The notes under the pieces: model-generated
What the model was told of the DNA's origin: nothing
The model's input: the letters and a program-made list of their open reading frames with translations, nothing else
Databases searched by the model: none
Made by a program: the position numbers and the translations under genes
From: an uncultured Candidatus Saccharibacteria bacterium
GTDB taxonomy: Bacteria; Patescibacteriota; Minisyncoccia; Minisyncoccales; PWPS01
NCBI GenBank assembly: GCA_964507105.1
Contig: CAZDOR010000002.1
Coordinates: forward strand, 22,871-82,585
DNA: 59,715 nucleotides
Reading direction: 5' to 3'
Shown here: positions 1 through 22,583 of the stretch, in pieces
How the letters are laid out: each line of letters starts with the position of its first letter
Numbering within the stretch: position 1 is the stretch's first letter

Positions 1-273
1 CTCGGGCCCCCAATCCAGCCCCTCTTCGGCTTCTTCGGAGTCTACTCTTTTTATGCAGCTGGGAAAATTACCCGCATGCTGAGGATCGGCGGCAAAAGCC
101 ATTACCGCGTTGCTAATGGAATTTATGTGCTGTCTTCTCGTCGAGTTTCTGGCTTGGGCGAATTGCTCACCCGGGTTGATGGTTACCACAACCGCACCGG
201 CCAAAATGGCGATGATGGCGATTACGATAAGAAGCTCAACCAATGTAAAACCTTTTTCAGTTATGTTTTTCAT
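1..273 (-). CDS. Type IV major-type pilin (3' end runs off the window start; not in ORF track)
   Basis: Manual translation: MKNITEKG|FTLVELLIVIAIIAILAGAVVVTINPGEQFAQARNSTRRQHINSISNAVMAFAADPQHAGNFPSCIKRVDSEEAEEGLDWGPE...; class III signal G|F with E5; no stop codon within the window. Confidence 0.92.
   Translation of the reverse strand, partial: MKNITEKGFTLVELLIVIAIIAILAGAVVVTINPGEQFAQARNSTRRQHINSISNAVMAFAADPQHAGNFPSCIKRVDSEEAEEGLDWGPE
137..273. repeat. 137-bp exact direct repeat, copy 1 (pilin codons 1-46)
   Basis: Identical to 724..860 (offset 587); flanking bases differ on both sides. Confidence 0.95.
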
Positions 274-312
274 ACGAATTTAAAAGAATTTCAATTCGAC
301 TTCGCTTAACTT

Positions 313-341
313 ATTCTATATAACTTTTAAAAATTTTGCAA
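313..341 (-). promoter_or_regulatory. Putative sigma70 promoter of the pilin at 1..273
   Basis: TTGCAA-17 bp-TAGAAT directly downstream of a terminator. Confidence 0.55.
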
Positions 342-343
342 AT

Positions 344-371
344 AAAAAAACGGCCCCCGGAAAGGAGGCCG
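344..371 (-). terminator. Intrinsic terminator after the pilin at 393..860
   Basis: CGGCCTCC-TTTCC-GGGGGCCG followed by T7 on the minus strand. Confidence 0.8.
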
Positions 372-392
372 CTTAAAGCACTTCTAAATAAT

Positions 393-860
393 TTAGTCTT
401 CTTCGTCTCTGTCGAGCCATTCATCGGAAGTGCTCCAAATGACTATGTTGTTGGCATCCTCGGTGGCAAAAGCCACTCTATATTCTTCATCTTCCTGTTG
501 GGGTTCGGGCATGTCGGTAATGTATTCCGGAGTCAAAGACTCACAATCTTCAACATCTACACCCTCCTGCTCTTCATCGAAGCCTTCATCTCCCGGCTCA
601 ACGTCGTCGGGATCCAAGGAATAAGGATCGTTGTCGTTGTCATACAAACAATCGGGGAAATTCCCTTGATTTCCGGCCGTATAGCTTAGAATACCGCTGG
701 AAATGGTTTGGATGTGTTGGTCCCTCGTCGAGTTTCTGGCTTGGGCGAATTGCTCACCCGGGTTGATGGTTACCACAACCGCACCGGCCAAAATGGCGAT
801 GATGGCGATTACGATAAGAAGCTCAACCAATGTAAAACCTTTTTCAGTTATGTTTTTCAT
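393..860 (-). CDS. Type IV major-type pilin with a very acidic globular domain
   Basis: KG|FTLVELLIVIAIIAIL class III signal; Cys pair (FPDC...EDC); P-x-D/E-P pilin motif. Confidence 0.95.
   Translation of the reverse strand: MKNITEKGFTLVELLIVIAIIAILAGAVVVTINPGEQFAQARNSTRDQHIQTISSGILSYTAGNQGNFPDCLYDNDNDPYSLDPDDVEPGDEGFDEEQEGVDVEDCESLTPEYITDMPEPQQEDEEYRVAFATEDANNIVIWSTSDEWLDRDEED
724..860. repeat. 137-bp exact direct repeat, copy 2
   Basis: Identical to 137..273. Confidence 0.95.
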
Positions 861-943
861 CTTTTCACAGATAAATTAACTTAATCGACCTTTTTTATTA
901 CTTATTGAAGTCTAAAACAAAAAACCGCTTCTTTCAAGTTCGA

Positions 944-1372
944 TTATTGCAAAATACGAAGGTCGGTAATGTCGTCGGTAATGTCTTCACACTCTTCCAG
1001 AAACGATCGAACGGTAACCCTCTCGTCGGCAAGCATTATTCCGTAGCAAGACCTTCCCTCTTCTCCCTGTGGATCGGAAGGAATTTCACTCACGTAACCT
1101 CCGCCTACCAACTCTTCTTCACACTCTGAAGCGTCAATGAACTCTCCCTCGTTTTCCGCGATACAATCGGGAAACTCTCCACCTTCCTCTATTACCCGGG
1201 TGTAGATTCCATTTACCAAAATATTCATATCGGACCAGCGCTGAGCATTTCTGTAGGTTTCCAATTGTTCTCTGGGATTGAGAGCCAAAACCACAACACC
1301 GGCCAAAATGGCGATTATACCGATAACGATCAGCAACTCTATCAAAGTAAACCCGTTTTTCTTATTTTTCAT
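944..1372 (-). CDS. Type IV major-type pilin
   Basis: NG|FTLIELLIVIGIIAIL; FPDC..., IPSDP motif; shares 19 identical bp (1297..1315) with the other two pilins. Confidence 0.95.
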   Translation of the reverse strand: MKNKKNGFTLIELLIVIGIIAILAGVVVLALNPREQLETYRNAQRWSDMNILVNGIYTRVIEEGGEFPDCIAENEGEFIDASECEEELVGGGYVSEIPSDPQGEEGRSCYGIMLADERVTVRSFLEECEDITDDITDLRILQ

Positions 1373-1412
1373 AAATATTCATTTTATTTTAAGTTCGACC
1401 TTTAGCTTTTTA

Positions 1413-1442
1413 ATTATACTAAAGACGGTTTCGTCAAGTCAA
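1413..1442 (-). promoter_or_regulatory. Putative sigma70 promoter of the pilins at 944..1372 and 393..860
   Basis: TTGACT-18 bp-TATAAT. Confidence 0.55.
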
Positions 1443-1843
1443 TCCCCGTGGATCGTTCTGGTCTTTTCTTTCCTTATCCAACCGGATTTTCCATCACGCA
1501 TCGACTCGATAAAAAGCCAGTCGTCTATCTTGTTTTTTACCAGATAGAAATCATCCACGGAAGCTTCTTTTTGAATATCGGCCTCGTCTCCGGGTCCCTC
1601 CAGAAGTGGATATTTTTCTTTTTCCACTTCCAAAATAACCACTATCGGTTCGACGGAAAGGCCTTCCCTCAACTGAAAAACGACTCCCGTTCGGGTGACC
1701 ACCTCTTCGGGGATGGGGAAAAAAGCAACATAATAGACCGTGAAAGCAAAAAAAAGCAGCCCGATAATCGCTATTAAAAGAGAAGCGAAATAAAATCCGG
1801 GATTCGGTCCGGTATCGTCTTCATAGTAAAAAGTAGTCGTCAT
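1439..1843 (-). CDS. Single-pass membrane protein with a C-terminal bacterial SH3-like domain
   Basis: TM helix at aa 17-42; LLEGPG...DW...GKSGWIRK resembles the SH3b pattern (R/ExGPs...W...G..GWv). Confidence 0.6.
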   Translation of the reverse strand: MTTTFYYEDDTGPNPGFYFASLLIAIIGLLFFAFTVYYVAFFPIPEEVVTRTGVVFQLREGLSVEPIVVILEVEKEKYPLLEGPGDEADIQKEASVDDFYLVKNKIDDWLFIESMRDGKSGWIRKEKTRTIHGD

Positions 1844-1855
1844 CGATCAAACAAA

Positions 1856-4800
1856 TTAATCTTCATCATTTTCATCTTCTTCGCCTTCATCCCCTTCTTC
1901 GGAAAGTTGTCCCTCTTCGGCTTCTATCAGGAGCTCTCGCATCCGGTTGGTCAAATCGACCAATTTTTGCTCAAAAGCGTAACTGTCAATCTCGCCTTGT
2001 TGATACAGGCCGTCATAGTCGGCGAACTCCTCCTCCAATTGTAAATAAAGCTCTTCGAAATACTCTTCTTCTTCCAATTCTTCTTCATTCATCAGGGTGT
2101 GTGCTCGGGAAAATTCATCGCGAAGTGTATCGGTTAAACCGGGAACCCTGTCTATATCTATGAGATCTCTTTCCGGAAGTTCTTGAAATTGAACTTGACC
2201 GGCCATGTTTCTGAAATTAAAGAGGGCGGCACCCAGCAAAAAAAGACCGGAAAAAAGTATGAAAACCGAAATTATGAAAAGCGGCTTATCATCTTCAATT
2301 TCATCTTTTCTTTCTTGCTTTTTAACTTCTTCGGGAAGCAAATTTACTCCCACGTCTATCGGGTCTTTGCGGAGTCCGCGCAAAGCTAAACCGACCACGT
2401 TGGAATAAAGCACCGACTCCTTCTCCTCCAAAAAGTCGGGGGCATCTATCTTCTTTAGCGGACTCCCCGTCTTGAAATTCAAATCTTCGAATTGACCTTC
2501 AAAAAAGTCGGTTATCCCGGGAAGCAGGGCGGTTCCTCCGGTAAGAAGAACCTCTTCTACCTGCGAGCTGAATTCCCGCTGATAATAATCGCGGGCCTCC
2601 TCTATTTCATCAACGATCTTGTGTCCGTGTTTTTCCATTATTTCATAAATATCTCCTTCCTTTTTGAATCCATTTTCCCGCTTTATTCTCTCTGCGTCGA
2701 CAGTCGTCTCTCCCAAATTTTTAGCTATTTCCCGAGTAAAATAATTTCCACCATAAGGAAGTGGAACGGAAACCACTAAGGACCCTCGCTTGTCATACAT
2801 GTTCAAAGTGCTGGTTTTGGCTCCCATGTCCAAAACCATCCTATCCTTTCCGTCGGCCATAACCAACTTCTCAGTGCCGTCCTCCCGCTTTATTTTTTTA
2901 ATTGGCAAAAGGGATCTACCTACGGAAAAGCCCTCTATCTCAAAAGCGGCTAAATCCAGTTTCGTCGACTTGAAAAAGAACGTATAGCTGTCAACTATCT
3001 CCTTCTGGGCGGCAACACAAATTATCTTCACCTCTTCCCCTACGGTGGGCACTTCTCTCGTGTCCCAATAGAGTTCATCCGGGTCGTGAGGTATAATCAT
3101 TTTTATTTTTTTCTTCACCTTTTCATTGAAGTTTTTTTTGTCGTTGAAAGTGAAAAGATGAACAAAAGTTCGAGACTCGGGCAAGCTAACCACTGCTTTA
3201 TACTTTTCTCGTTTCAAAACTATCGCTTTATCCTTGTCGTTGTCACTTATCCTGACCGGGAAAGGGTAAGCGTTTTCCAAGACCTCTTCTAATCTTTCGG
3301 ACAATTTTTTCTGATCGACAATTTCTCCGTCCTTGATTATCCCTTTACCCAATCTGGTTCTCCCATAAGTGAAAACCGACTTGTTTTCATTTAAAATAAG
3401 CATCTCTATCGAATAATCGCTGAGGTCGATTCCCATAAACCAGTGCTTGTCGGCAAAGAGTCTTTTCCATTGAATTCTCTTCAATTTTTTAATTTTATCC
3501 CGAACGAAAGGAGGTAAATTGTCATTATCATCAAATTCTTTCTGCCTGTCCTCCGGTCCGGAAGTTTCTATTCGGCCCGGATCTCGGTCTTCTTGTTTTT
3601 TTTCTTTTTTATTTTTCGAATCCAAAGAGGTGATTATCATCTCCACATCCTCTTCATCAATTTCTTCCTTTTTGGTTAATTCTTCCCGATCCATGTCACT
3701 CAAGTGGTTTAAATCCAGACCGGCATCGGCTAATTTCTTTTCCAAGTCGACCGAAAGCCCGGTAACACTTTCGGTTTTTGGTTTCGAACTTCCATCGCCT
3801 TTTTTCAGACGAAGGTTTATTTTCTCACGCATCTCTCTGACACGCCGAAAGAAGTCATCCCCAAGTGAAGAATCGTCTTCTTTTTGTAGTAGGCTTTCCA
3901 GTTTTTTTTCGGCCGATTCGAACTGTTCTTCTTCGAATAGTTTTTTAGCTTCCAAAAAAATTCTTTCCGCCTTTTTCTCTTCTTTTTTCTTCTTTTTTCT
4001 TCTTTTTTCTTCTTTCAATGTTTTTTTAAGTTTCGCTAATTCATCAACTTCTTTTCGATTCACACCGACCGCCTTGAGACGATCTTCCAAGCCGGAAACA
4101 AGCTGTCGAGCTCGCTTTAATCCACCCTTTTCGATTATCTCTTCTATTTCCGGTATCTCACTTTTGACCGCTTTTATTTCGGACTCCTTTTTTTGTCTTT
4201 CTTTTCGCGCTCGGGATAAAATTTCTTCGCCTTGGTCAATTAGGGATTCTACTTCTTCTATTTTTTTTCCGATTTCTTCGCCTTTTTTCTTTATTTTAGT
4301 CCACTTTTTTTCTTCTTCCTCTATCTTTTTTAAATTGGAACTCAACCATCTCTTTTTTTCTTTAATCCATTTACGCTGTTTTTTATTTTTATCTTTTTCT
4401 TCAAGATCCCGAATTACGGACAGCTTCTCCTCGAGCAACTTTTTTAGGCCATTTAACCTTTCCTTTTTTTCTTCAGCCGATTTGAGTTTTTCTTTTAATT
4501 TTTTCTCCTTTTGAATCAGCTTTTCGAGTAACTCCTTCCACTCGGAAACGGTTTCCTTTATTTTCGCAAGATCTTCATTTCCGCTCAATTTTTTCAGTTC
4601 CGAATTATCGAGGTCGGGAAGATCCTGGATGTCGATTTCGGGTATTCTGACTATTTTTTTATTGCCGAAAAACTTTTTTACAAAAGAAAATAGAGAGCCC
4701 TCTCCGCGATAGTCTTTCTCTTCTTTATCGACAATATTTTTTCTGAGCCGAGAAGATTTCTTCAAAAGATTACCCTTTTTACTAACCTTTTCGCTAACCT

Positions 4801-7066
4801 CCTTATCTGAATTTTTCAGATCATCAATTAACGAATCTATCAAAAACAATGCCTTCAAGTACTCTTCTTTTTGAAAACGGTCCTCCACTTCTTCGTAACG
4901 AGAAAGGAGCTTTTTGATTTTTTTATTCAGTTCGGAATCGAGCCTCTTTTCTTCTCTTTTTTTCTCCAACTTTTCTTCTAATTTTTTTATTTTTTTCTCC
5001 GGAACTTCGAGAGATTCTTCTCTTTTCAATTCTTCCAGCTTATTTTTCAATTCTTCCGGTTTTCCTTCTTCGATTTGATTTTCAATTTGAGAGATTTTTT
5101 TCTTTAATTGATTCCTTTTCTTTTCTTTTTCCTTTTTTATCTCCTCGATTCTATCTTCTCCTTTCTCTATTTTTTCTTTAATTTTTTTCAAGAGTTGTCC
5201 TGCTTTTTTCTTTCTGTTTCTTGCCTCAGCTAATTTATTCTCTTCTTCCTCTATCTTTTTTAAATTGGAACTCAACCATCTCTTTTTTTCTTTAATCCAT
5301 TTACGCTGTTTTTTATTTTTATCTTTTTCTTCAAGATCCCGAATTACGGACAGCTTCTCCTCGAGCAACTTTTTTAGGCCATTTAACCTTTCCTTTTTTT
5401 CTCCGACTGATTCTAATTTTTCTTTTAGCTTTTTTTCTTTCCGAGTCAAGTTTTTAAGTGATTCATTCCATTCGGAAAGGACTTCTTTCACTTCTGCAAG
5501 ATCTTCTTTTCCCTTTAATTTTTTCGAGCTCGAATCATTGATCTCGGGAAGATCTTGGATGTCGATTTCGGGTATTCTGACTATTTTTCTGTTTTCGCTT
5601 ATAACCAGCTGACCATAGCCGGCCAATTCCTCGTCTTGAACTTTTTCTTTCAACGAAAAACACTCGCTCAAGAGTCCGGAAAAACTATCTTCTTCCTCCA
5701 GTTTTTGAATCAGCTCCAATAGAATAAAGATTGATTCTAAAAAGTTCGATTGTTCATAGAGTTTTTGTGCCTCTTCATAACGATTAAATAGTTTTTCCCT
5801 CTTTTTTTCTTGAATTAATTCCTCTTCCGCCTCTTTTAATTCGATTTCTATTTTTTTCAAAGTTTCATTAATTTTCTCTCTTCTTTCCTTTAAAGAGGAT
5901 ATTTTTTTAAGTTCCTCATCGGTAGAATCTTTTATTTTTTTGTAAAAATCATATTTTTTACTCAACCAGTCACCCATTATTAAGGTGGGCCTTGTTGATT
6001 TTATCTCATCGAGAGAATCGAGCTTTTTTTTCATAACTTTTTTCAAGGCAAGTAGCTTTTCTTTTCTCTCAGTTAGTTTTTCCAATTCGCTTTCCATTTC
6101 TTTCAGGTCGTGGGTTAACCGCTCGGAATCCTTCTCCATTTTTTTAATTAATTTCCGCAAAGCGGTCACGGAAATTTTGCCGGGATCCTCGTTATAACCG
6201 AATTCCTCGGGATCCGGAAACCGATCCATGTCGAGACTGGGAATCCGAAACCCCTTTCCGGTAACCTTGCCCAATCTTCCGCTCTTTAATTCTTCTTCTC
6301 GATAAAAAAGATTTTTCTTTTCGTATTCCTTTTTTTCTTCTTTTTTCGCTTTTTCTTTGAGTTTTTGTGCCTTTTCAATCAGTTTTTCCTGATTTTTAGG
6401 TTCCGCATTTCTAATCAGAAACTCGGTTAAAAATTGAACTTTTAAATATTCTCCGTTCTCAAAATAATCCGCGGCTTCTTGATATGGAATTTTCAGTTTA
6501 TTCTTTTCTTTCTCTTCTTTTTTCTTTGATTTCAGTTCCTCAATTTTTTCTTTTACCCGTTCGGCCGCAGTCTCTTTTTTTCTTAAAGTTTTCTCCAAAT
6601 GTGAGGCGGACTTTACTGCTCTCTGTTTTTTGTTTTCCATTCGAAACAATTCCTTCTCCAGGTAGGATTTTTCATCTTTTATTTCGCTCATTTGGCTTTC
6701 CTCCTCCCAAACTTTTTTTTCCAAATTACGAAGCTTATCTTCAAGCTCCCATCTCTTTCTGATCAGTTTTCGCCTTCGCTCCGGAGAATCCTCGGCAGCA
6801 ATGGACTTCTCGATTCTTTTTCTTTTTTCCTCAACTTTTCTCTGTATTCTTTTACTGATGGCCAGAGAATCTTCAATTTTCTCTTTTTCTTTTTGGAGAT
6901 CTCTTCTTTTTCTCTTAGACTTACTTTGATTTCGAATCAAGGATTCCATCTGCTCTTCGGCAGATTTTAACTCTCTTTTTAATTTTTCGATGCCCTCCTC
7001 GAATTGAGAGTACCTCTCTTCAAGTTCGGCGATCGTTTCAGGTTTTTGTTCCTCCTTATTGGTCAT
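1856..7066 (-). CDS. pilM: Giant PilM fusion (1736 aa): about 1200-aa repeated coiled-coil/helical region + HhH-like motif + PilM actin-like domain + PilN-like VNLLP/TM + acidic tail
   Basis: PilM motifs from aa ~1211: MGIDLSDYSIE, VVSLPES, VLDMGAKTS, GGNYFT, LLTGGTALLPG, VGLALRG; then VNLLP and one TM; located inside a pilus operon. Confidence 0.85.
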   Translation of the reverse strand: MTNKEEQKPETIAELEERYSQFEEGIEKLKRELKSAEEQMESLIRNQSKSKRKRRDLQKEKEKIEDSLAISKRIQRKVEEKRKRIEKSIAAEDSPERRRKLIRKRWELEDKLRNLEKKVWEEESQMSEIKDEKSYLEKELFRMENKKQRAVKSASHLEKTLRKKETAAERVKEKIEELKSKKKEEKEKNKLKIPYQEAADYFENGEYLKVQFLTEFLIRNAEPKNQEKLIEKAQKLKEKAKKEEKKEYEKKNLFYREEELKSGRLGKVTGKGFRIPSLDMDRFPDPEEFGYNEDPGKISVTALRKLIKKMEKDSERLTHDLKEMESELEKLTERKEKLLALKKVMKKKLDSLDEIKSTRPTLIMGDWLSKKYDFYKKIKDSTDEELKKISSLKERREKINETLKKIEIELKEAEEELIQEKKREKLFNRYEEAQKLYEQSNFLESIFILLELIQKLEEEDSFSGLLSECFSLKEKVQDEELAGYGQLVISENRKIVRIPEIDIQDLPEINDSSSKKLKGKEDLAEVKEVLSEWNESLKNLTRKEKKLKEKLESVGEKKERLNGLKKLLEEKLSVIRDLEEKDKNKKQRKWIKEKKRWLSSNLKKIEEEENKLAEARNRKKKAGQLLKKIKEKIEKGEDRIEEIKKEKEKKRNQLKKKISQIENQIEEGKPEELKNKLEELKREESLEVPEKKIKKLEEKLEKKREEKRLDSELNKKIKKLLSRYEEVEDRFQKEEYLKALFLIDSLIDDLKNSDKEVSEKVSKKGNLLKKSSRLRKNIVDKEEKDYRGEGSLFSFVKKFFGNKKIVRIPEIDIQDLPDLDNSELKKLSGNEDLAKIKETVSEWKELLEKLIQKEKKLKEKLKSAEEKKERLNGLKKLLEEKLSVIRDLEEKDKNKKQRKWIKEKKRWLSSNLKKIEEEEKKWTKIKKKGEEIGKKIEEVESLIDQGEEILSRARKERQKKESEIKAVKSEIPEIEEIIEKGGLKRARQLVSGLEDRLKAVGVNRKEVDELAKLKKTLKEEKRRKKKKKEEKKAERIFLEAKKLFEEEQFESAEKKLESLLQKEDDSSLGDDFFRRVREMREKINLRLKKGDGSSKPKTESVTGLSVDLEKKLADAGLDLNHLSDMDREELTKKEEIDEEDVEMIITSLDSKNKKEKKQEDRDPGRIETSGPEDRQKEFDDNDNLPPFVRDKIKKLKRIQWKRLFADKHWFMGIDLSDYSIEMLILNENKSVFTYGRTRLGKGIIKDGEIVDQKKLSERLEEVLENAYPFPVRISDNDKDKAIVLKREKYKAVVSLPESRTFVHLFTFNDKKNFNEKVKKKIKMIIPHDPDELYWDTREVPTVGEEVKIICVAAQKEIVDSYTFFFKSTKLDLAAFEIEGFSVGRSLLPIKKIKREDGTEKLVMADGKDRMVLDMGAKTSTLNMYDKRGSLVVSVPLPYGGNYFTREIAKNLGETTVDAERIKRENGFKKEGDIYEIMEKHGHKIVDEIEEARDYYQREFSSQVEEVLLTGGTALLPGITDFFEGQFEDLNFKTGSPLKKIDAPDFLEEKESVLYSNVVGLALRGLRKDPIDVGVNLLPEEVKKQERKDEIEDDKPLFIISVFILFSGLFLLGAALFNFRNMAGQVQFQELPERDLIDIDRVPGLTDTLRDEFSRAHTLMNEEELEEEEYFEELYLQLEEEFADYDGLYQQGEIDSYAFEQKLVDLTNRMRELLIEAEEGQLSEEGDEGEEDENDED
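4311..4472. repeat. 162-bp exact intragenic direct repeat, copy A
   Basis: Identical to 5241..5402 (offset 930 bp = 310 codons); encodes EKKERLNGLKKLLEEKLSVIRDLEEKDKNKKQRKWIKEKKRWLSSNLKKIEEEE. Confidence 0.93.
5241..5402. repeat. 162-bp exact intragenic direct repeat, copy B
   Basis: Identical to 4311..4472; part of a larger imperfect duplication starting at RIPEIDIQDLP. Confidence 0.93.
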
Positions 7067-7126: not shown

Positions 7127-7603
7127 TCAGCGACGTAGATTTTCAACCGTGGTAAAGCTTCTTTCAAAATCAAACTGAGGCATCTCTTCCGGGTTGTAAA
7201 AAGCAACATCAAAATCCATTCGTACGGCACCGTCTCCCGCTTTTTCAAAATTAAGTCTCCTTATTACCGACCTTTCCGTCGAAACACGATCCGGCTCCCG
7301 ATCTCCTCTTTTAATATAAAAATGACTTCCCTCCAGATAAATTTCAACCGGATCGGTGCTCTCGTATAACGAATTCAAAATTAATTTGTCTCCCTCAACC
7401 GATTCAATCTCCTCGGCTAATCTTATTTCTCGAGAAACCCGTTCGGAAATTACTCTCCCGTTCTGATTGACCACTTCCATGGACATATTTCTCATTCGGG
7501 CAGTGGAAATATTGGTACCTATCAAAACGACGGTACCGATGAGACCGGTTATTATCGCAAAATAAATTAAAAATTCTATCAGTGTAAATCCGCGTTTATT
7601 CAT
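7127..7603 (-). CDS. Minor pilin (PilW/PulJ-like)
   Basis: MNKRG|FTLIEFLIYFAII; start moved from the track's 7618 to the ATG at 7603. Confidence 0.85.
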   Translation of the reverse strand: MNKRGFTLIEFLIYFAIITGLIGTVVLIGTNISTARMRNMSMEVVNQNGRVISERVSREIRLAEEIESVEGDKLILNSLYESTDPVEIYLEGSHFYIKRGDREPDRVSTERSVIRRLNFEKAGDGAVRMDFDVAFYNPEEMPQFDFERSFTTVENLRR

Positions 7604-7604
7604 A

Positions 7605-8015
7605 TTAACGATTTTCAATTTTTACCGACTCCTCGTTTTCGGCACATTCTGCTTCCAAACTTATCCTACCTACCCCGACGGCTTGAACGAAATATCCCGT
7701 TTCGTATTCACAATCGTCTCCGAGTGGGTCTTTCGGAATTTCATCCATATAATCGGGAACCAGATCGCTCTCGCACTCACTTATATCGATCCGACTTTCT
7801 TCCACACATTCCGGATACTCCCCTTCTCGGGACCGATATTCGGTAAAAGAAAGTTGTAAATCTTCAAGATGAGCTCTCCTTCTGTCATTTCTGGATTGAC
7901 TAATCCTGTATCCGGGATTTATCGTTACGACGATGGCAACCGTCAGTATGGAAATGATACCGATAACCAAAAGTATCTCAACCAGGGTAAATCCTTTTTC
8001 GGTTATTTTTTTCAT
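7605..8015 (-). CDS. Type IV pilin (major/PulG-like)
   Basis: MKKITEKG|FTLVEILLVIGIISIL, TINPG, IPKDP; start moved to the ATG at 8015. Confidence 0.9.
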   Translation of the reverse strand: MKKITEKGFTLVEILLVIGIISILTVAIVVTINPGYRISQSRNDRRRAHLEDLQLSFTEYRSREGEYPECVEESRIDISECESDLVPDYMDEIPKDPLGDDCEYETGYFVQAVGVGRISLEAECAENEESVKIENR

Positions 8016-8016
8016 C

Positions 8017-8475
8017 TTAAAATTCAGTAAAATTATCGACTTCACGCCAATTTATAAGCTCCATCTCGAAGTGGCCTTCTACTTCTTCATGCTCTTCAAG
8101 ATGAACTTCCGCCTGAATATTTTTAATGCTATCCCTCTTTTCACCGACACCGGAAACGATGCGTATCGTTTCTCTGGATTCGACTTCTCTTATCCTACAA
8201 GTTTCTTCCCCGACGGAAATTTCCTCATCTCCCTCGTAATCGGAATCGAATTTAAGTCTGTTCAAGCCCTCTTCAACGCAACTATTGGCTAAATGAAGAG
8301 CAATCCGGGAGTCTACCAAATCGTCCGTTCTTCTCAAATCTTCGGCAGCGGAAAAAAACATCCCCAAAAAGAGAACCATAAAAAATCCGCTCATTATGAT
8401 AACCGAGGTGAGGGCCACCATTCCTCTTTCATCAACGGAAAATTGGGTTTTTTTATTTTTAGTATTGTTCTTCAT
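8017..8475 (-). CDS. Minor pilin, PilX-like (lacks E5)
   Basis: RG|MVALTSVIIM hydrophobic helix; A...A.SCVEEGL..L; C-terminal WREV; start moved to 8475. Confidence 0.75.
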   Translation of the reverse strand: MKNNTKNKKTQFSVDERGMVALTSVIIMSGFFMVLFLGMFFSAAEDLRRTDDLVDSRIALHLANSCVEEGLNRLKFDSDYEGDEEISVGEETCRIREVESRETIRIVSGVGEKRDSIKNIQAEVHLEEHEEVEGHFEMELINWREVDNFTEF

Positions 8476-9469
8476 CCAATATGCAGCGAACCGAATAATA
8501 ATTGTCTTTTCCGTAATATTCACGAGGAATACCCGAGGCTGAGCTCAGCTCTCTGGTCCAAGCGGTTCCTCCGAACTCTTCCGTTGCCGTCCACCACTGA
8601 CCCAAAGACCCCTTTCCGTAAAATTCAGTCGTATACCGACCTCCGTGGCGACCACTCCAGTCGGTTTCGTTGGTCCCGCCGTATTCCTGGTCGACCAAAT
8701 AGTCTCTGACCTGCCCGTCTCCTCGAACTTCTTCTTCGGAATCTCCATAAGGAAATTCATTTTCGCACCAAGTTTCCGATTGTCCGGTTTTTTGACAAAC
8801 GGCTCTTTCCATACGAGTGAAATCATCATCGGTGGCCGCTCTCCATCCTTCCGGACAAAGATCTTCTCCACCATCACTTATCGCATCCCAGTTGTAAAGT
8901 CTCCCATACGAGTCACAATTTTCCTCTTCATATTCATAGCAGAAACTGCCCCCTCCGTCGTGATCGGCATAATTGATATTCTCAGCGATCCAGCAATCAT
9001 CTCCTATCTTTACAGTCGAATAGTTTTGCCCGTCACGGGAATCGGTAATCTCTTTTCCGCACGGAAAGGGAGGAATCATCCAGGGAGTCATAACTTCTTG
9101 CAATTCGACTTCCTGAGTTTCCCCTTCGAGATCCCATTGAACGACGGAATCGACCAAACAAGCTCCGTTTTGACAATCGACACTCGTCTCTCTATCAAAT
9201 ACCGTATTCTCATCTTCCGGGGAAATCGTTTCTCCGGAAGTTCCGAAATCCCTGATTTGCTCGTAATCATCGTTTCTGAGAGCACGAATCTCTTCAATTC
9301 CCTCTCGAGCTATCATCAGGGCTTGTGATTTACCCGTACTGTAATTCATCGAAAGTTGAGCACGAATAGCCAGATGAGTAACGGAACCGACACCGACAAT
9401 AAAAACGGCAATAGCCAACATCAACTCCATCAAGCTGGCTCCCCGTTGCTTTTTTTTATCGAATATCAT
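8459..9469 (-). CDS. Minor pilin (PilV-like) fused to a FISUMP/Fib_succ_major domain
   Basis: RG|ASLMELMLAIAVF; CG..ITDSRDGQNYSTVKIGDDCWIAENINY, YGRLYNW, CPEGWR, WWTAT, YSVRCI. Confidence 0.88.
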   Translation of the reverse strand: MIFDKKKQRGASLMELMLAIAVFIVGVGSVTHLAIRAQLSMNYSTGKSQALMIAREGIEEIRALRNDDYEQIRDFGTSGETISPEDENTVFDRETSVDCQNGACLVDSVVQWDLEGETQEVELQEVMTPWMIPPFPCGKEITDSRDGQNYSTVKIGDDCWIAENINYADHDGGGSFCYEYEEENCDSYGRLYNWDAISDGGEDLCPEGWRAATDDDFTRMERAVCQKTGQSETWCENEFPYGDSEEEVRGDGQVRDYLVDQEYGGTNETDWSGRHGGRYTTEFYGKGSLGQWWTATEEFGGTAWTRELSSASGIPREYYGKDNYYSVRCILDEEQY

Positions 9470-9470
9470 T

Positions 9471-9935
9471 TTAATAAGCTTCTATTCTTCCACTTTCGGA
9501 CACTTTTATCGTTTTATTCATCCCTTCGTAACTGAAATTTATTTCACCGGAGCTTTTTCCGGCCCTGAAACCGACCGTATTTCCCGAGTGCCCCCCGGGC
9601 TCATCGACTATCGCCCGGTAATAATATTTACCTCCGAAAATCAATTTTTCAACCTCGGCATCGAAACCACTTTTTTCATTTACGGTAATCGCTTCGGTTT
9701 GTCTGTCGAGATCATCTTTGTCCCTGCCCCATAAGAAAGAAACCTGTGCCTCGTCCCGACCGTAACCGGCACTAAGGAGAGCTCCCCTGAAAGTAGCCAC
9801 ATGCTCTCCATCACGAAAAGATATTCCCGTCGGACGGTCGGTCCGAATCGTTGTTTCAGCCAAAACCATACCACCAAAAAGAAGAGTAAAAAAAACGATA
9901 CAAGTTATTAATAATAATTTTTTACTTTTTATCAT
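9471..9935 (-). CDS. Secreted small beta-sandwich (Fn3-like) protein in the pilus operon
   Basis: Signal peptide; AT.RG, F.WG, YYYRAIV resemble the Fn3-like module also present in 9948..11282. Confidence 0.55.
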   Translation of the reverse strand: MIKSKKLLLITCIVFFTLLFGGMVLAETTIRTDRPTGISFRDGEHVATFRGALLSAGYGRDEAQVSFLWGRDKDDLDRQTEAITVNEKSGFDAEVEKLIFGGKYYYRAIVDEPGGHSGNTVGFRAGKSSGEINFSYEGMNKTIKVSESGRIEAY

Positions 9936-9947
9936 GATTTAAATTTA

Positions 9948-11292: not shown

Positions 11293-12339
11293 TTAAAACT
11301 CGTGAGTTACTTCGTAAACGGGGAGAATTATTGCAAAAGCAAGAAAAGCAACCATAACACCCAAAAAGATAAGTATTACCGGCTCCAAAACTACCGGAAG
11401 TTTCTCGGTTTTTCTGGAAACCCGGGTACTGAAAAAATCGGCCAAATAACTGAAGCCTTCTTCGTAAGATCCGGTCTCTTCACCGGTTAGCACCACGGAA
11501 ACGAAAACGCTGGGAAACAAATTGGGGTAATCGGAAAGCGCTTCTCCCAAGCTGACTCCCTTTTGAGTTCTTATTTTTATTTTTTCCATCGCCTCTCTGT
11601 ATCTGATGTTGGTCACCGACTGAGAAACAATTTCGAGAGAGTCGGTTATCGGTAATCCGCTGGCAAAAAGAGTGCTTATCAGCTGAGCGATGACGGTAAG
11701 TTGATATTCTTTTACAAGTCCCTTGGCTATCGGCATTCTCAGCTGAACAGAGTGCCAGAGCTTTTTTATCGGTTCAACTTTCAAAAGTAGCCAGACCGCC
11801 ACTCCGAAAGCGGCCAATCCTCCGAAAACAAAAAGTCCACTTTCCTGCATAGTTTCCGAAATTCCCAGAAGCATTCGAGTAGTGATGTGTAGCTCAACAT
11901 CCAAGCTGTTAAAAACGGAAACCAAATCGGGCAAAATAAAGATGGAGAGTCCGGCGGCCAATAAAACCGCAAAACCCAAAATTAATTTCGGGTAAAGAGT
12001 AGCCGAACTGATATCTTCTTTAAGTTTACTGCTTCTTTCCAACCAGCTGCCTAAATTTTCAAGATTTTCTTCCAGGGTTCCCGATTCTTCACCGGCTCGA
12101 ATAAAACTGACGAATATTCTTCCGAAGTAAGGATTCTCGTCAAATATTTCATAAAGTGAAGTTCCTTTTTCAACCTTTTCCTGGGCCTTCTCCAGGGTTT
12201 GGGTAAGAGCCGGAACTCTGGATTGCTCAGCTAAAAGCTCAAAAGACTCATTAATCGGCTTACCACTTTTAATCAGAAGAGATAGATTTTTAACCAAATC
12301 CACTTTCTCCTGAGTGTTTATTTTTTTGAATACGGCCAT
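11293..12339 (-). CDS. pilC: Type IV pilus platform protein PilC (GspF family)
   Basis: Two T2SSF repeats, GEESGTLEENL / GEETGSYEEG, YP, EP, final TM AIILPVY. Confidence 0.95.
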   Translation of the reverse strand: MAVFKKINTQEKVDLVKNLSLLIKSGKPINESFELLAEQSRVPALTQTLEKAQEKVEKGTSLYEIFDENPYFGRIFVSFIRAGEESGTLEENLENLGSWLERSSKLKEDISSATLYPKLILGFAVLLAAGLSIFILPDLVSVFNSLDVELHITTRMLLGISETMQESGLFVFGGLAAFGVAVWLLLKVEPIKKLWHSVQLRMPIAKGLVKEYQLTVIAQLISTLFASGLPITDSLEIVSQSVTNIRYREAMEKIKIRTQKGVSLGEALSDYPNLFPSVFVSVVLTGEETGSYEEGFSYLADFFSTRVSRKTEKLPVVLEPVILIFLGVMVAFLAFAIILPVYEVTHEF

Positions 12340-12343
12340 GGAG

Positions 12344-12724
12344 TTAAGCGATTATTTTGTCTTCTACCCCCAAAAGCTCTCTCATCTTTTCGACCACTTG
12401 GGAAAAAGAATCCTCTTCTTTTACAAAATAGCCCTCAGCAACCCGGTTGCCTTCTTTTCTGTCCACTTCTTGATTGAGGGTAGTCAGAATTATAAAAGGA
12501 ATTCCGGAAAGTTCTTTGATTTTTTTGGTTTCTTTTATCAATTTAAAACCGTCCTTGAAGGGGATCAGAATTTCGGTAACCACCAAGTCCGGCTTTTCCT
12601 CTTTTATCTTTTTGAAGGCTTCTTCACCGTCTCTGGCAGAAATAAACTCTATCTTCTCTCCGAGCTTTTTTTTATACAATTTTATGTAAAAATCGTCCTT
12701 GTCTACGAATAATATTTTTTTCAT
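12344..12724 (-). CDS. Single-domain response regulator, atypical receiver (phospho-Asp replaced by Glu)
   Basis: ILFVDKD, ARDGEEA, KPDLVVTEILIP (E at the D position), IILTT, YFVK. Confidence 0.85.
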   Translation of the reverse strand: MKKILFVDKDDFYIKLYKKKLGEKIEFISARDGEEAFKKIKEEKPDLVVTEILIPFKDGFKLIKETKKIKELSGIPFIILTTLNQEVDRKEGNRVAEGYFVKEEDSFSQVVEKMRELLGVEDKIIA

Positions 12725-12734
12725 AATTTTTTGA

Positions 12735-14435
12735 TTAAGCTTTTGCCGCCTTACTTATCTCCTCCAAGGTAGTTTCTCCCATCAGGGCTTTCATTACTCC
12801 GTCTTGAACCATGGTCGTCATACCTTCTTTCATCGCCTGCTTTTTAATCAAGTCCGAAGTTTTTTTATTACTAACCAAGGATTTTATTTTTTCCGATATT
12901 TCCAAAACCTCAAAAATAGCCGTACGACCGGAATATCCGCTTCCTTCACAAACTTTACAGCCATTACCTTTGTAAAATCTTATCTTCGACAAGTCCTCTT
13001 CACCGGAAATCTTTTTTACGGTTTCCGGAAGCCCCTCTACTTCGGAAAGCAATTCCAGCTCTTCATCGGATAAGAAATGACTTCGCTTACACTTATTGCA
13101 GATCGTTCTAACCAACCTCTGGGCAATAATCACATTTACGGAAGAAGAAACAAGAAAAGGTTCGGCATTCATCTCCAAAAATCTGGGGAAAGTGGTGGCC
13201 GCATCGTTGGCATGCATGGTAGTTAAAACCAGATGACCGGTCATGGCTGAATTTAAGGCCATATCAACCGTTTCTTCATCCCTTATCTCACCGACCATAA
13301 TTACATCCGGATCCTGGCGAACTATCGCCCTAAGACCTTCCAGAAAGGTCACCCCCTTTTCCGGATTGACTTGGGTTTGTTGAACACCTTCCACATTATA
13401 TTCGGTCGGATCCTCGACCGTCATTATATTAACTTCGGGATTGGATAACATCTGTAATACGGAATAGAGAGTGGTACTCTTACCCGACCCGGTCGGACCG
13501 ACCACCACTATCATGCCATACGGTTTTCTCGCCGCCTTTTTCACCCTTTTCAGGTCTTTATCCAACAAGCCGAGCTCATCTATTGAAAAGCGGTTACCTT
13601 CTTGCATTAAGAGTCTCATAACTATATTTTCCCCCTCGGTGGTCGGCATTACCGAGACCCTCATATCTATTTTCCCTCCATTGGTTAATTCGAACTCAAA
13701 ACGTCCATCTTGAGTGGCTTCTTTCTCATCAGTTCTCAACCGAGCCATTATTTTTAATCTGGATGTAATTCGATCATGTAGTTTTTTCGGATACTCGGCA
13801 ACCTTGTGTAAAATACCATCAACCCGAAATCGTATTATTCCCGAATCGGATTGGGGTTCTATGTGTATATCCGAAGCGGTATTACTTTCCGCATAATCAA
13901 CTATGGAATTAACGAACTGAACCACACTTTCCTCAGCCCCTTCACCTTTTTTCTTTCTCATCTTTTCTATCAATTCAGTAAGTCTGGTGGAAAGATTTCC
14001 CTTGTATTTTTTCAGAGCCTGCTCCATATCAAAAGGAGTGGCATAATGGACATTGACTTTCTTGCTCGCCTTCTGCTCCAAGGTTTTTAAAAAAGTATAA
14101 TTTCCCGGATCGGAAGTAGCCACTTTTATCTCTTCGGAATTTTCATCGAAAACTATCGCTTTTTGGCTTTGAGCTACAACTTCCGGAATGTAATTAAGCA
14201 TTTTACCGCTTATCTCATCTATATTCTGTTTTTTAAGATTAATATAATCATACCCGGATTCATCGGCTATTATTCTCCCCAAGTTTTCATCCTTTATCAA
14301 CCCCTTTTTAACCAGCGCCTCCTCTATGGTGGATTCGTCCAATCGGGAAATTCTCAAGGCCTCTTCGAATCCTTCCGCGGAAACGTGCCTCGGCTCAACC
14401 AATATTCTTTTTAATTTTTCTTCTGATAAAAACAT
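12735..14435 (-). CDS. pilB: Type IV pilus assembly ATPase PilB (GspE family)
   Basis: ASDIHIEP, Walker A GPTGSGKST, TVEDPTEY, RQDPDVIMVGEIRD, GHLVLTTMH, Zn tetracysteine. Confidence 0.96.
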   Translation of the reverse strand: MFLSEEKLKRILVEPRHVSAEGFEEALRISRLDESTIEEALVKKGLIKDENLGRIIADESGYDYINLKKQNIDEISGKMLNYIPEVVAQSQKAIVFDENSEEIKVATSDPGNYTFLKTLEQKASKKVNVHYATPFDMEQALKKYKGNLSTRLTELIEKMRKKKGEGAEESVVQFVNSIVDYAESNTASDIHIEPQSDSGIIRFRVDGILHKVAEYPKKLHDRITSRLKIMARLRTDEKEATQDGRFEFELTNGGKIDMRVSVMPTTEGENIVMRLLMQEGNRFSIDELGLLDKDLKRVKKAARKPYGMIVVVGPTGSGKSTTLYSVLQMLSNPEVNIMTVEDPTEYNVEGVQQTQVNPEKGVTFLEGLRAIVRQDPDVIMVGEIRDEETVDMALNSAMTGHLVLTTMHANDAATTFPRFLEMNAEPFLVSSSVNVIIAQRLVRTICNKCKRSHFLSDEELELLSEVEGLPETVKKISGEEDLSKIRFYKGNGCKVCEGSGYSGRTAIFEVLEISEKIKSLVSNKKTSDLIKKQAMKEGMTTMVQDGVMKALMGETTLEEISKAAKA

Positions 14436-18383: not shown

Positions 18384-18455
18384 AGCCGGAGGCGGGACTC
18401 GAACCCGCGACCTACTCTTTACGAGAGAGTCGCTCTTCCTCTGAGCTACTCCGGC
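18384..18455 (-). tRNA. tRNA-Thr(CGT), CCA not encoded
   Basis: GCCGGAG/CTCCGGC acceptor stem, ACTCT-CTCGTAA-AGAGT anticodon arm, GGTTCGAGTCC T-loop. Confidence 0.96.
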
Positions 18456-22251: not shown

Positions 22252-22274
22252 GTCCTTTGTTTGGAAATAAAAAA

Positions 22275-22583
22275 CCCAAGCAGGAAATAAGCCGAGTTCT
22301 GTCTAAGGGCAATCATTTATCTGGGCTTCGAGTTACCCCGAAGCTCGAGCGGGCTACCAAAGTTTGCCCTTTCATTCAGGTAGGGATTTAGCCGTTTCAT
22401 GCTCACCTTTCGATGAGCTTAATCCCTAAGGATTTCTCAAACCTTTCGGCTGAGACGTTTCTGTTCGCACCCCGCGCCTTGCGACGGATGGGTATTACCC
22501 ACTACCCTTGTCCCGAAACTCGAGACGGAAAATGCTCGGACTTTCCTCTCCGTAAAACGGAGCGATCACCTATCCTGCTTGGG
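22275..22583 (-). ncRNA. rnpB: RNase P RNA (about 309 nt)
   Basis: GAGGAAAGTCCGAGC...ACAGAACTCGGCTTA P4 motifs with a compensatory change; 11-bp P1 CCCAAGCAGGA/TCCTGCTTGGG. Confidence 0.96.

What the first reader, a model, noticed from the sequence alone, without database searches (positions are those of the whole stretch)
1..860. Tandem pilins with an identical 137-bp constant 5' block and divergent variable 3' halves: possible pilin cassette switching
Seen: 137-273 and 724-860 are identical from the ATG to codon 46 (the whole alpha-1 helix). Identity stops abruptly at the start codon and at the start of the globular domain, where the proteins diverge strongly. Between the genes lie a terminator and a separate promoter. 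A third pilin shares 19 identical bp of the same block. Known: Neisseria pilin variation relies on conserved 5' segments for gene conversion. Inference: recombination between the repeats (587 bp apart) would fuse pilin-2's upstream region to pilin-1's variable head, or shuffle heads among an array that may continue left of the window, changing host-attachment specificity.
Basis: partly seen in the sequence, partly recalled or inferred. Interest (0 to 1): 0.72.

Follow-up and report, generated by a model that had tools for sequence, protein, structure and literature searches.

The report
Tandem pilins with homogenised 5' ends
Two neighbouring pilus-subunit genes of an uncultured soda-lake bacterium begin with the same 137 bases, most likely because recombination copied that part from one gene to the other; their outer parts are very different, and this looks like an ordinary multi-pilin locus, not a switching cassette system.

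Summary
Window 137-273 and 724-860 are identical, on the minus strand, from the ATG to the second base of codon 46. Both flanks are unrelated. Chance and protein constraint cannot explain this (about 1e-20).

The locus is the far end of a type IV pilus operon: pilB, response regulator, pilC, minor pilins, a pilM fusion, then three complete major-type pilin genes. Each has a promoter-like site.

Two longer public contigs show ftsZ directly after pilin1, so the array does not continue. I found no silent cassettes, G4 motif or recombinase. Three assemblies share the same arrangement.

Outside the block, pilin1 and pilin2 are old paralogues: synonymous sites are saturated and the heads are 35% identical. 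The block is therefore a gene-conversion tract.

Two sister species show the same pattern independently, with exact 5' runs of 74 and 47 nt between their tandem pilins. Between species the longest run is 20 nt or less. This is concerted evolution of the assembly module, not diversification.

Real diversity lies elsewhere. The Cys71-Cys106 loop of pilin2 differs about 100 times more between strains than the surrounding DNA.

Tandem major pilins with identical N-termini are known, for example in Streptococcus sanguinis. Verdict: real, explained, moderately interesting, and a new member of a known kind.

The parts
1..273 (-). pilin1, first 91 codons. The gene runs off the left end of the window. 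The full protein is 158 aa (P0001).
   Evidence: Translation. The full-length identical protein was found on two ENA contigs, with ftsZ downstream. The N_methyl motif GFTLVE is visible in the sequence.
137..273 (-). Constant block, copy 1. It covers the ATG, the 7-residue leader plus Gly(-1), the prepilin cleavage site G|FTLVE, the transmembrane alpha-1N and the first 14 residues of alpha-1C.
   Evidence: 137/137 identical to 724-860. The helix limits come from the AlphaFold model.
313..341 (-). Promoter-like hexamers (TTGCAA-17-TAGAAT) upstream of pilin1.
   Evidence: Consensus scan, 9 of 12 matches. Not shown to be functional.
348..374 (-). Intrinsic-terminator-like hairpin (11 pairs, 7 of them G-C) followed by a T run, just after the pilin2 stop codon.
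393..860 (-). pilin2, 155 aa, a complete type IV prepilin.
   Evidence: ORF. Pfam N_methyl, E = 3e-8. AlphaFold model with pLDDT 85 showing a long N-terminal helix plus a small head. The family profile matches solved T4a major pilins.
724..860 (-). Constant block, copy 2.
500..645 (-). Hypervariable segment of pilin2 (codons about 72-121, mostly the Cys71-Cys106 loop). It shows in-frame indels at (GACAAC)n and (AACAGG)n and a replaced segment of about 50 nt.
   Evidence: About 70 of the 88 internal differing alignment columns among three assemblies over 10.3 kb fall here. Differences run at 11.3 per 100 nt against about 0.1 in the background. Several low-depth variant unitigs coexist in run X2. 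Allele alignment.
909..937 (-). Promoter-like hexamers (TTGAAA-17-TAGACT) upstream of pilin2.
   Evidence: consensus only.
944..1372 (-). pilin3, 142 aa, a complete type IV prepilin of the 'a-type' (orthologous to the first pilin of the sister species). It is not homogenised with pilin1 and pilin2.
   Evidence: Pfam N_methyl, E = 2e-9. Block 66-73% identical with a 19-nt exact run. Head 39-46% identical to B_a and C_a.
1413..1442 (-). Strong promoter-like site (TTGACT-18-TATAAT, 11 of 12) upstream of pilin3.
1439..1843 (-). 134-aa membrane protein between the pilM fusion and the pilins. No Pfam family.
   Evidence: The same position holds a similar-sized gene in sister species C.
1856..7066 (-). 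1736-aa protein: a long Lys/Glu-rich repetitive N-terminal part plus a C-terminal PilM/FtsA-like ATPase domain and a transmembrane tail.
   Evidence: Pfam PilM_2 1.8e-21 and FtsA 5e-10. Internal repeats of about 350 nt at 86-87% identity.
7127..9469 (-). Minor-pilin-like genes (7127-7618, 7605-8045, 8017-8523, 8459-9469). The last one carries a Fib_succ_major domain.
   Evidence: Pfam N_methyl and Fib_succ_major. The N-terminus of the 7605-8015 gene is 67% identical in protein to the block.
11293..14435 (-). PilC (T2SSF), a response-regulator receiver and PilB (T2SSE plus MshEN): the assembly platform and ATPase that the pilins feed.
   Evidence: Pfam T2SSF 6e-51, Response_reg 8e-11, T2SSE 3.5e-124.

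Best explanation
This is the far end of a type IV pilus operon of an uncultured soda-lake bacterium, probably of the Patescibacteria/CPR type. It ends in three complete major-type pilin genes on the same strand, each with its own promoter-like site, followed by ftsZ.

pilin1 and pilin2 are old paralogues. Their first 137 nt have recently been overwritten, one by the other, through non-reciprocal homologous recombination (gene conversion) between the tandem copies.

The converted segment encodes the leader peptide, the prepilin-peptidase site, the membrane-embedded alpha-1N helix and the start of alpha-1C. This is the part that the shared peptidase, platform and filament core must recognise.

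Conversion is tolerated or favoured there. It stops where homology stops: at the ATG on one side, and at the end of the family-wide conserved ARNSTR motif on the other.

The exposed, very acidic heads stay different, so the cell has pilins with one assembly module and different surfaces. The pilin2 Cys-Cys loop is in addition highly polymorphic between co-occurring strains.

Shown: the repeat, the operon, the end of the array, the break in synonymous divergence, the independent homogenisation in sister species, and the strain-level head variation.

Inferred: gene conversion as the mechanism, co-assembly as the selective reason, and surface or partner recognition as the role of the heads.
For: Repeat and statistics.

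Operon annotation.

End of the array at ftsZ.

Nei-Gojobori comparison of pilin1 and pilin2:
- Block: pS 0.03, pN 0.
- Rest of the genes: pS 0.75 (saturated), pN 0.45.

Head identities: pilin1 versus pilin2 is 35%. pilin1 versus the pilin of species D is 43%. The duplication is therefore at least as deep as the species split.

Sister species, found through conserved synteny with ftsZ, compared:
- Species C paralogues share a 74-nt exact run and 29 of 36 same codons.
- Species B paralogues share a 47-nt exact run.
- Orthologues between species share at most 20 nt and about 33-60% same codons.
- The heads group by orthologue type (a-type: A_p3, B_a, C_a), while the 5' blocks group by genome.

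The family profile matches solved T4a major pilins along alpha-1. The model shows alpha-1 at residues 11-63.

Literature:
- S. sanguinis has 2-3 major pilin genes, and PilA1 and PilA3 are identical over residues 1-53 (PMC11121087).
- H. volcanii PilA1-6 share an almost fully conserved H-domain that is needed for assembly (PMC4371748).
Against: No conversion event was observed directly. One recent event in species A cannot be told apart from an ongoing process, because the three strains differ by only about 0.1-0.4% and the block is invariant in all of them.

No expression or pilus-composition data exist; no RNA runs were found. Co-assembly is therefore unproven.

In species B the excess of same codons is modest (21 of 35) outside the 47-nt run.

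pilin3 has escaped homogenisation, so the process does not cover the whole array.

Only contigs and unitigs were available, not raw reads. Rare recombinants cannot be excluded.
Confidence: 0.68

Rival explanations
1. Cassette switching. The identical blocks are substrates for frequent recombination that fuses the pilin2 upstream region to the pilin1 head, or shuffles heads within a larger array, so changing attachment specificity.
For: The repeats are direct, exact and 137 nt long, well above the roughly 25-nt minimum for RecA-type recombination (my own knowledge). Copy number differs between species: three pilins in A and two in B and C. This fits occasional unequal crossing-over over evolutionary time.
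Against: The array ends at ftsZ. No silent cassettes were found. Only two head types carry this N-terminus in 5.8 billion proteins. The arrangement is the same in three assemblies.

In run X1 the unitig depth of the inter-repeat segment (47.3) equals the flank (47.7). The repeat node has only the two expected contexts on each side. There is no G4 motif and no recombinase family in the Pfam results.

A deletion would be irreversible and would not change the pilin1 protein.
Confidence: 0.08
2. A one-off mosaic. A single recent recombination or horizontal-transfer event grafted a divergent head behind a duplicated 5' block, or the reverse. There is no recurrent homogenising process and no selective meaning.
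For: Within species A only one tract with sharp ends is visible, and it is invariant among strains. That is what a single event would give.
Against: Independent tracts of different extent occur in sister species C (74 nt) and B (47 nt), with partial decay around them: 88% identity over 142 nt and 83% over 116 nt. This points to repeated events in the clade. Unrelated metagenomic loci also show adjacent pilins that are similar at the 5' end. Both heads belong to the same clade-specific 'b-type', so neither is foreign.
Confidence: 0.14
3. A simple recent tandem duplication, followed by very fast divergence of the heads under positive selection.
For: Pilin heads do evolve fast here. The pilin2 loop differs about 100 times more than the background between strains.
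Against: Synonymous sites of the heads are saturated (pS 0.75) while the block has pS 0.03. The step between them falls within one codon. Positive selection does not saturate synonymous sites. The pilin1 head is closer to the pilin of another species than to pilin2.
Confidence: 0.03
4. Selection at the nucleotide level keeps the two 5' ends identical without recombination. The cause could be an mRNA structure, a shared regulatory RNA target, or codon-specific membrane-targeting kinetics.
For: The identity begins exactly at the ATG. The 5' coding region is where translation-initiation and signal-recognition effects act.
Against: Sister species encode nearly the same peptide with different codons: about 33-60% same codons and runs of 20 nt or less. 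pilin3 in the same cell also uses different codons (13 of 26 the same). No particular nucleotide sequence is therefore required.
Confidence: 0.03
5. Assembly artefact, for example a collapsed or chimeric repeat.
For: Short-read metagenome assemblies can misjoin at repeats. Several related contigs break at or inside the pilin 5' block.
Against: Three independent assemblies give the same order. The contig names (k141_) imply a final k-mer of 141, longer than the 137-nt repeat. The Logan unitig of the repeat has about twice the depth (73 against 43, 32, 47 and 48) and exactly two in-contexts and two out-contexts.
Confidence: 0.01

Closest known systems
Streptococcus sanguinis type IV pilus locus with two or three major pilin genes (pilE1/pilE2; pilA1-pilA3)
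   Same: Several complete major-pilin genes lie inside one pil locus of a bacterium that (to my knowledge) has a single membrane. The alpha-1 region is identical between paralogues: PilA1 and PilA3 are identical over residues 1-53. Paralogues are more alike within a strain than homologues between strains, and pilin genes are the least conserved pil genes between strains (PMC11121087). From my own knowledge, PilE1 and PilE2 co-assemble into one heteropolymeric filament.
   Different: In S. sanguinis the similar paralogues are similar along their whole length (94%), which looks like a recent duplication. Here identity is confined to a 137-nt tract in genes that are otherwise saturated. This is a clear segmental conversion, and it recurs in sister species. 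Co-assembly is untested here.
Haloferax volcanii adhesion pilins PilA1-PilA6
   Same: Six pilins share an almost completely conserved hydrophobic N-terminal domain but have different heads. Each can act as a major pilin with one machine, and replacing the H-domain abolishes assembly (PMC4371748). The logic is the same: one assembly module and several surfaces.
   Different: It is an archaeon. From my own knowledge, the genes are not all adjacent. I did not check whether the identity extends to the DNA level.
Neisseria pilE/pilS antigenic variation
   Same: Type IV pilin; gene conversion; a hypervariable disulfide-bounded loop in the head.
   Different: From my own knowledge, Neisseria has one expressed gene plus many promoterless silent copies that lack the 5' constant region. 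Transfer goes into the variable part, and it needs a G4 element upstream of pilE. Here all copies are complete, the converted part is the constant one, and no silent copies or G4 motif exist.
Moraxella bovis/lacunata Q/I pilin inversion (Piv)
   Same: Two pilin heads share one constant N-terminal coding segment, and recombination occurs within that segment.
   Different: From my own knowledge, that system uses inverted repeats and a dedicated recombinase to flip a 2-kb segment. Here the repeats are direct and no recombinase family appeared in the Pfam results.
Concerted evolution of tandem bacterial paralogues by gene conversion (for example duplicated tuf genes or rRNA operons; Staphylococcus aureus lpl tandem cluster, PMC2568036)
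   Same: Similarity within a genome exceeds similarity between species, in a defined segment of tandem or duplicated genes.
   Different: Here the tract is limited to a functional module of a secreted filament subunit, next to a hypervariable module. I saw PMC2568036 only as a title and abstract.
Saccharibacteria (TM7x) type IV pili
   Same: The likely relatives are Patescibacteria. T4P are nearly universal in that group, and major pilins and tip pilins mediate host binding and motility (PMC11623550). This supports the idea that the heads matter for partner attachment.
   Different: TM7x has two separate systems with one major pilin each. No tandem major pilins with identical 5' ends are described there.

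Membership tests
Type IV pilin (class III signal peptide; T4a-like major pilin) | Short basic leader ending in Gly(-1), Phe(+1), Glu(+5) and a hydrophobic stretch of about 20 residues (N-methylation motif) | tested here: met
   The sequence reads MKNITEKG|FTLVELLIVIAIIAILAGAVV. Pfam N_methyl E = 3e-8 (pilin2) and 2e-9 (pilin3), both above the gathering score.
Type IV pilin (class III signal peptide; T4a-like major pilin) | Long N-terminal alpha-1 helix carrying a small globular head | tested here: met
   AlphaFold model with pLDDT 85: helix at residues 11-63 with a kink at Pro34, plus two short strands. The Foldseek search of the head found nothing significant. The family profile matches solved T4a pilins over alpha-1: Geobacter PilA 1.7e-13, Thermus PilA4 1e-9, S. 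sanguinis PilE1 6e-9.
Type IV pilin (class III signal peptide; T4a-like major pilin) | Encoded with a T4P assembly machine (PilB, PilC, PilM) | tested here: met
   No prepilin peptidase or PilT appeared in the Pfam scans of the window's ORFs of 120 aa or more.
Multi-major-pilin T4P locus (S. sanguinis type) | Two or more complete major-type pilin genes in tandem within the pil locus, with identical alpha-1N | tested here: met
Multi-major-pilin T4P locus (S. sanguinis type) | The paralogues are all expressed and co-assembled into one filament | not testable with these tools
   No RNA runs hold the locus. There are no proteomic or structural data.
Concerted evolution by gene conversion | A sharp break in synonymous divergence within the gene pair | tested here: met
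   pS 0.03 in the block against 0.75 in the rest.
Concerted evolution by gene conversion | Converted segments group by genome while unconverted segments group by orthologue, in more than one lineage | tested here: met
   Within-genome exact runs of 137, 74 and 47 nt against 20 nt or less between species. The heads group as a-type and b-type. Only three species have both genes on one contig.
Neisseria-type pilin antigenic variation (pilE/pilS) | Promoterless, 5'-truncated silent cassettes that donate variable sequence | tested here: not met
   tblastn of all heads against the window plus two 20-kb loci finds only the three complete genes and the minor pilins. The rest of the genome was not available.
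Neisseria-type pilin antigenic variation (pilE/pilS) | G-quadruplex-forming sequence upstream of the expressed pilin | tested here: not met
   No G3+N1-7 x4 motif in window 1-3000 or L003 8000-11000, on either strand.
Invertible pilin segment (Moraxella Piv type) | Inverted repeats in the pilin constant region plus an adjacent recombinase | tested here: not met
   The repeats are direct. No recombinase or integrase family appeared in the Pfam scans of the window or in the precomputed Pfam listings for L002 and L003.
Diversity-generating retroelement acting on the pilin2 loop | Reverse transcriptase, a template repeat, and adenine-specific substitutions without indels | tested here: not met
   No RT family appeared in the Pfam scans of the window. 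The RVT_3/RNase_H hit at 26485-26928 is a 147-aa protein that matches RNase H over nearly its full length. The alleles differ by in-frame indels and by changes at all four bases.

The most novel reading that the evidence does not exclude
The constant 5' block, together with the nearly invariant flanks, may serve as a homology arm for exchanging pilin heads at the population level. Exchange could occur by unequal crossing-over within the array (two or three copies) and by uptake of DNA from neighbouring strains, possibly through the pilus itself. The locus would then behave as a slow, population-wide cassette system. The pilin2 head would be the exchanged cassette, kept diverse by frequency-dependent selection from hosts, phages or grazers.
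Probability: 0.15. Interest if true: 0.6.

Novelty: new member of a known kind. Interest (0 to 1): 0.38.

Why it matters
Type IV pili are the main candidates for how ultrasmall, host-dependent bacteria attach to partner cells and take up DNA. This locus suggests a simple design: one assembly module kept uniform by recombination, and several different, fast-changing surfaces.

It also gives a clean natural example of segmental concerted evolution in a filament subunit, repeated in three sister species.

There is a practical point. The repeat and the variable head break short-read assemblies at exactly this spot, so pilin repertoires of such genomes are probably under-counted.

It does not reveal a new variation mechanism.

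Tried and rejected
- The GTDB representative genomes gave only a Bradyrhizobium N-terminal match when scanned with pilin2. The window's genome is not in that collection.
- The first JGI metagenome scan with pilin2 found nothing.
- Exact look-up of the window's pilin2 allele, also listed as P0003, found no contig. pilin1 (P0001) did.
- The more distant pilin relatives P0009, P0012 and P0023 sit in loci with a single major-type pilin. They cannot test concerted evolution.
- No RNA runs were found.
- A Foldseek search of the pilin2 model against the PDB gave no significant match. The head is small and unlike solved pilin heads.
- The cluster look-up gave no organism names. The Patescibacteria assignment rests only on source names of weak homologues and on gene content.
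- Three further ftsZ-synteny look-ups gave contigs that end at or inside the pilin gene, or lack pilins altogether, so they added no further paralogue pairs.
- I considered a DGR, a G4-dependent system and an invertase. Each was rejected (see the membership tests).
- I looked for a donor of the divergent L003 pilin2 segment in the window, L002 and L003, and found none.
Full report

Yes. Window 137-273 and 724-860 match at 137 of 137 positions, 587 nt apart. Both belong to genes on the minus strand.

- pilin1 starts at 273 and runs off the left end of the window.
- pilin2 is 393-860 (155 aa).
- A third pilin, pilin3, is 944-1372 (142 aa).

The identity starts at the A of the ATG and ends after the second base of codon 46. 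The third base of codon 46 is a synonymous difference, and codon 47 is Arg versus Asp. Upstream of the ATG the sequences are unrelated. The window holds only these two copies, and none is expected by chance.

Protein constraint cannot explain the identity. Under the window's codon usage, the chance that 45 codons for the same residues all coincide is about 1e-20. Other pilins of the family use the same codon at only 13/26, 13/33 and 11/31 of the sites where the residue is the same.

- pilin3 shares an exact 19-nt run.
- A terminator-like hairpin (374..348) and promoter-like hexamers (341..313) lie between pilin2 and pilin1. Promoter-like sites also precede pilin2 (937..909) and pilin3 (1442..1413, 11 of 12). 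These are consensus matches only.

One correction is needed. In an AlphaFold model of pilin2 (pLDDT 85) the alpha-1 helix spans residues 11-63. The block ends at residue 46, so it covers the following parts and ends inside the helix, not at the start of the head:
- the leader;
- the cleavage site;
- alpha-1N;
- the first part of alpha-1C.

**2. Is it an artefact?**

No.
- Public runs from soda-lake metagenomes hold the sequence.
- In their k=31 unitigs the repeat is a separate 137-nt node. Its depth is 73, against 43, 32, 47 and 48 for its four neighbours in run X1, and 68 in run X2. It has exactly two contexts on each side.
- Two ENA contigs, L002 (47.8 kb) and L003 (73.6 kb), carry the same three-pilin order at 99.4-99.8% identity. 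Their names (k141_) imply a final k-mer longer than the repeat.

**3. What is the locus?**

Reading along the minus strand:

| Feature | Window coordinates |
|---|---|
| PilB | 12735-14435 |
| Response-regulator receiver | 12344-12724 |
| PilC | 11293-12339 |
| Fib_succ_major-domain proteins and minor pilins | 7127-11282 |
| 1736-aa protein with a C-terminal PilM/FtsA domain | 1856-7066 |
| 134-aa membrane protein | 1439-1843 |
| pilin3, pilin2, pilin1 | 944-1372, 393-860, 1-273 |

All three pilins have the class III signal peptide, for example MKNITEKG|FTLVELL.

A profile of the family matches solved T4a major pilins along alpha-1:
- Geobacter PilA;
- Thermus PilA4;
- S. sanguinis PilE1;
- Neisseria PilE.

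The rest of the window is housekeeping:
- SecA, SecDF, MurJ, MurB, PGK and LepA;
- a release factor and FtsEX;
- RNase P RNA and one tRNA.

Nearly every long ORF that matched a family lies on one strand.

Names attached to weak homologues (Patescibacteria group, Colwellbacteria, Jorgensenbacteria, Nealsonbacteria) and the gene content suggest a CPR/Patescibacteria bacterium. This is not proven.

**4. Does the array continue, and are there cassettes?**

No. On L002 and L003 pilin1 (158 aa, P0001) is followed by these genes:
- ftsZ;
- a carbohydrate kinase;
- a pyridine-nucleotide disulfide oxidoreductase (Pyr_redox_2);
- enolase;
- further glycolytic genes.

A tblastn search of all heads against the window and both loci finds only the three genes, the minor pilins, and one 365-aa pilin-like gene further downstream.

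In a collection of 5.8 billion proteins, only pilin1 and alleles of pilin2 carry this N-terminus. There is no G4 motif. No recombinase or reverse-transcriptase family appeared in the Pfam scans of the window or in the precomputed Pfam listings for L002 and L003.

In run X1 the depth of the segment between the repeats equals that of the flanks (47.3 versus 47.7), so a 587-bp deletion is not common there. The depths in X2 are less clean. Rare variants cannot be judged from contigs.

**5. What made the block?**

Outside the block the two genes are old paralogues.
- Synonymous differences are saturated (pS 0.75) and pN is 0.45. In the block pS is 0.03 and pN is 0.
- The heads are 35% identical. 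The pilin1 head is closer (43%) to the single recovered pilin of another species (D) than to pilin2.

A simple recent duplication is therefore excluded. The block is a recombination tract laid over old genes.

I recovered sister species through conserved synteny with ftsZ.
- Species B (FtsZ 84% identical over the aligned part) has two pilins before ftsZ.
- Species C (77%) has the pilM fusion, a small gene, two pilins and then ftsZ.

Their pilins encode nearly the same N-terminal peptide as the window's, but with different codons. Between species about 33-60% of codons are the same, and the longest exact run is 20 nt or less.

Within each genome the two paralogues share exact runs of 74 nt (C) and 47 nt (B), surrounded by 88% and 83% identity. 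The heads group by orthologue: pilin3 groups with B_a and C_a at 39-46%. The 5' blocks group by genome.

This is the signature of concerted evolution by gene conversion, arising independently in three lineages with tracts of different extent. pilin3 in the window shares only 19 nt with the others. From my own knowledge that is about the lower limit for RecA-type exchange, which may explain why it has drifted apart.

**6. How ordinary is this?**

I ran a second metagenome scan with a family alignment, then a script over the 103 loci fetched plus the first 20 kb of the window. Unrelated adjacent pilin or pseudopilin pairs also share similar 5' ends:
- L086: 47-nt exact run.
- L040: 38 nt.
- L098: 28 nt.
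- L042: 23 nt, with 89% identity over 129 nt and divergent heads.

The window is the extreme case in this set, but it is not a different kind of thing.

In the literature, S. sanguinis carries two or three major pilin genes. PilA1 and PilA3 are identical over residues 1-53, and paralogues are more alike within strains than homologues between strains (PMC11121087). H. volcanii PilA1-6 share an almost fully conserved hydrophobic domain that is required for assembly (PMC4371748).

**7. Where is the real diversity?**

Among the window, L002 and L003, about 70 of the 88 internal differing alignment columns over 10.3 kb fall in window 500-645. This is pilin2 codons about 72-121, mostly the loop between Cys71 and Cys106.

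| Species | Pilin gene | Differences per 100 nt | Background per 100 nt |
|---|---|---|---|
| A (L002 vs L003) | pilin2 | 11.3 | about 0.1 |
| B | pilin_a | 4.9 | 0.5 |
| C | pilin_b | 1.3 | 0.05 |

pilin1 and pilin3 of species A are almost invariant.

The pilin2 alleles (155, 156 and 152 aa) differ in two ways:
- in-frame indels at short hexanucleotide repeats, (GACAAC)n and (AACAGG)n;
- a replaced segment of about 50 nt.

In run X2, several low-depth variant unitigs coexist between two shared flanks. The heads are very acidic, with 25-32% Asp plus Glu and a pI near 4. I read that as typical of exposed proteins in saline, alkaline water, which is my own inference.

**8. Mechanism and verdict**

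Most likely (0.68), the cell keeps several pilins that share one assembly module.
- Gene conversion between the tandem copies keeps that module uniform. It includes the peptidase site, the membrane anchor and the filament-core helix.
- Conversion ends where homology ends.
- The exposed heads diverge, and in pilin2 they are polymorphic in the population.

The cassette-switching reading keeps a small probability (0.08), because raw reads were not available.

This is a real, well-explained feature and a new member of a known kind. It is of moderate interest, mainly as a clean case of segmental concerted evolution in pilins of host-dependent ultrasmall bacteria.

Noticed in passing
window 500-645 (minus strand, pilin2 codons about 72-121): The Cys71-Cys106 loop of pilin2 is a strain-level hotspot. 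It differs about 100 times more than the surrounding 10 kb. The differences include in-frame indels at (GACAAC)n and (AACAGG)n and a replaced segment of about 50 nt. Several alleles coexist in one metagenome. No donor sequence was found.
   Followed up: yes
window 1856-7066 (minus strand): A 1736-aa protein has a PilM/FtsA-like domain only at its C-terminus. That domain is preceded by about 1200 residues of Lys/Glu-rich repetitive sequence, including two copies of about 350 nt at 86-87% identity (about 4305-4660 and 5235-5590). The homologue in sister species C (1372 aa) carries SH3-like hits and holds most of the strain differences outside the pilins.
   Followed up: partly
window 8459-9469 and 9948-11282 (minus strand): Two proteins inside the pilus operon carry a Fib_succ_major domain. 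The first also has a weak prepilin N-terminus (below Pfam's cut-off). They could be tip or adhesin pilins.
   Followed up: no
window 7605-8015 (minus strand): This pilin, at a minor-pilin position, has an N-terminus (MKKITEKGFTLVE...) 67% identical in protein to the constant block. Its head is 43% identical to part of the pilin3 head. It looks like a fourth member of the major-pilin family, with no DNA-level homogenisation.
   Followed up: partly
L003:15143-16240 (beyond the left end of the window): A 365-aa gene with a prepilin-like N-terminus (59% identical in protein to the block) sits between the genes for enolase and phosphoglycerate mutase. It has no Pfam domain.
   Followed up: no
L018, L019, L022, L023 (ftsZ-synteny contigs of related species): Several independent contigs end just upstream of the pilin next to ftsZ, or inside its conserved 5' block. 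This suggests that the repeated block or the variable heads regularly break short-read assemblies at this locus.
   Followed up: partly
window 29166-30782 (minus strand): A protein resembling a type IV secretion coupling protein (TrwB/TraG-like), with a treble-clef zinc finger, lies among housekeeping genes.
   Followed up: no
window 40759-41967 (minus strand): A full-length serpin (Pfam E = 1e-93), which I believe is unusual for a small-genome bacterium.
   Followed up: no
window 54851-58846 (minus strand): A 1331-aa protein whose only Pfam hit is a DUF642 domain. It is probably a large surface protein.
   Followed up: no
window 22273-22581 and 18384-18455 (minus strand): Bacterial class A RNase P RNA (128 bits) and one tRNA. 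Nearly every long ORF of the window that matched a protein family lies on the minus strand.
   Followed up: no
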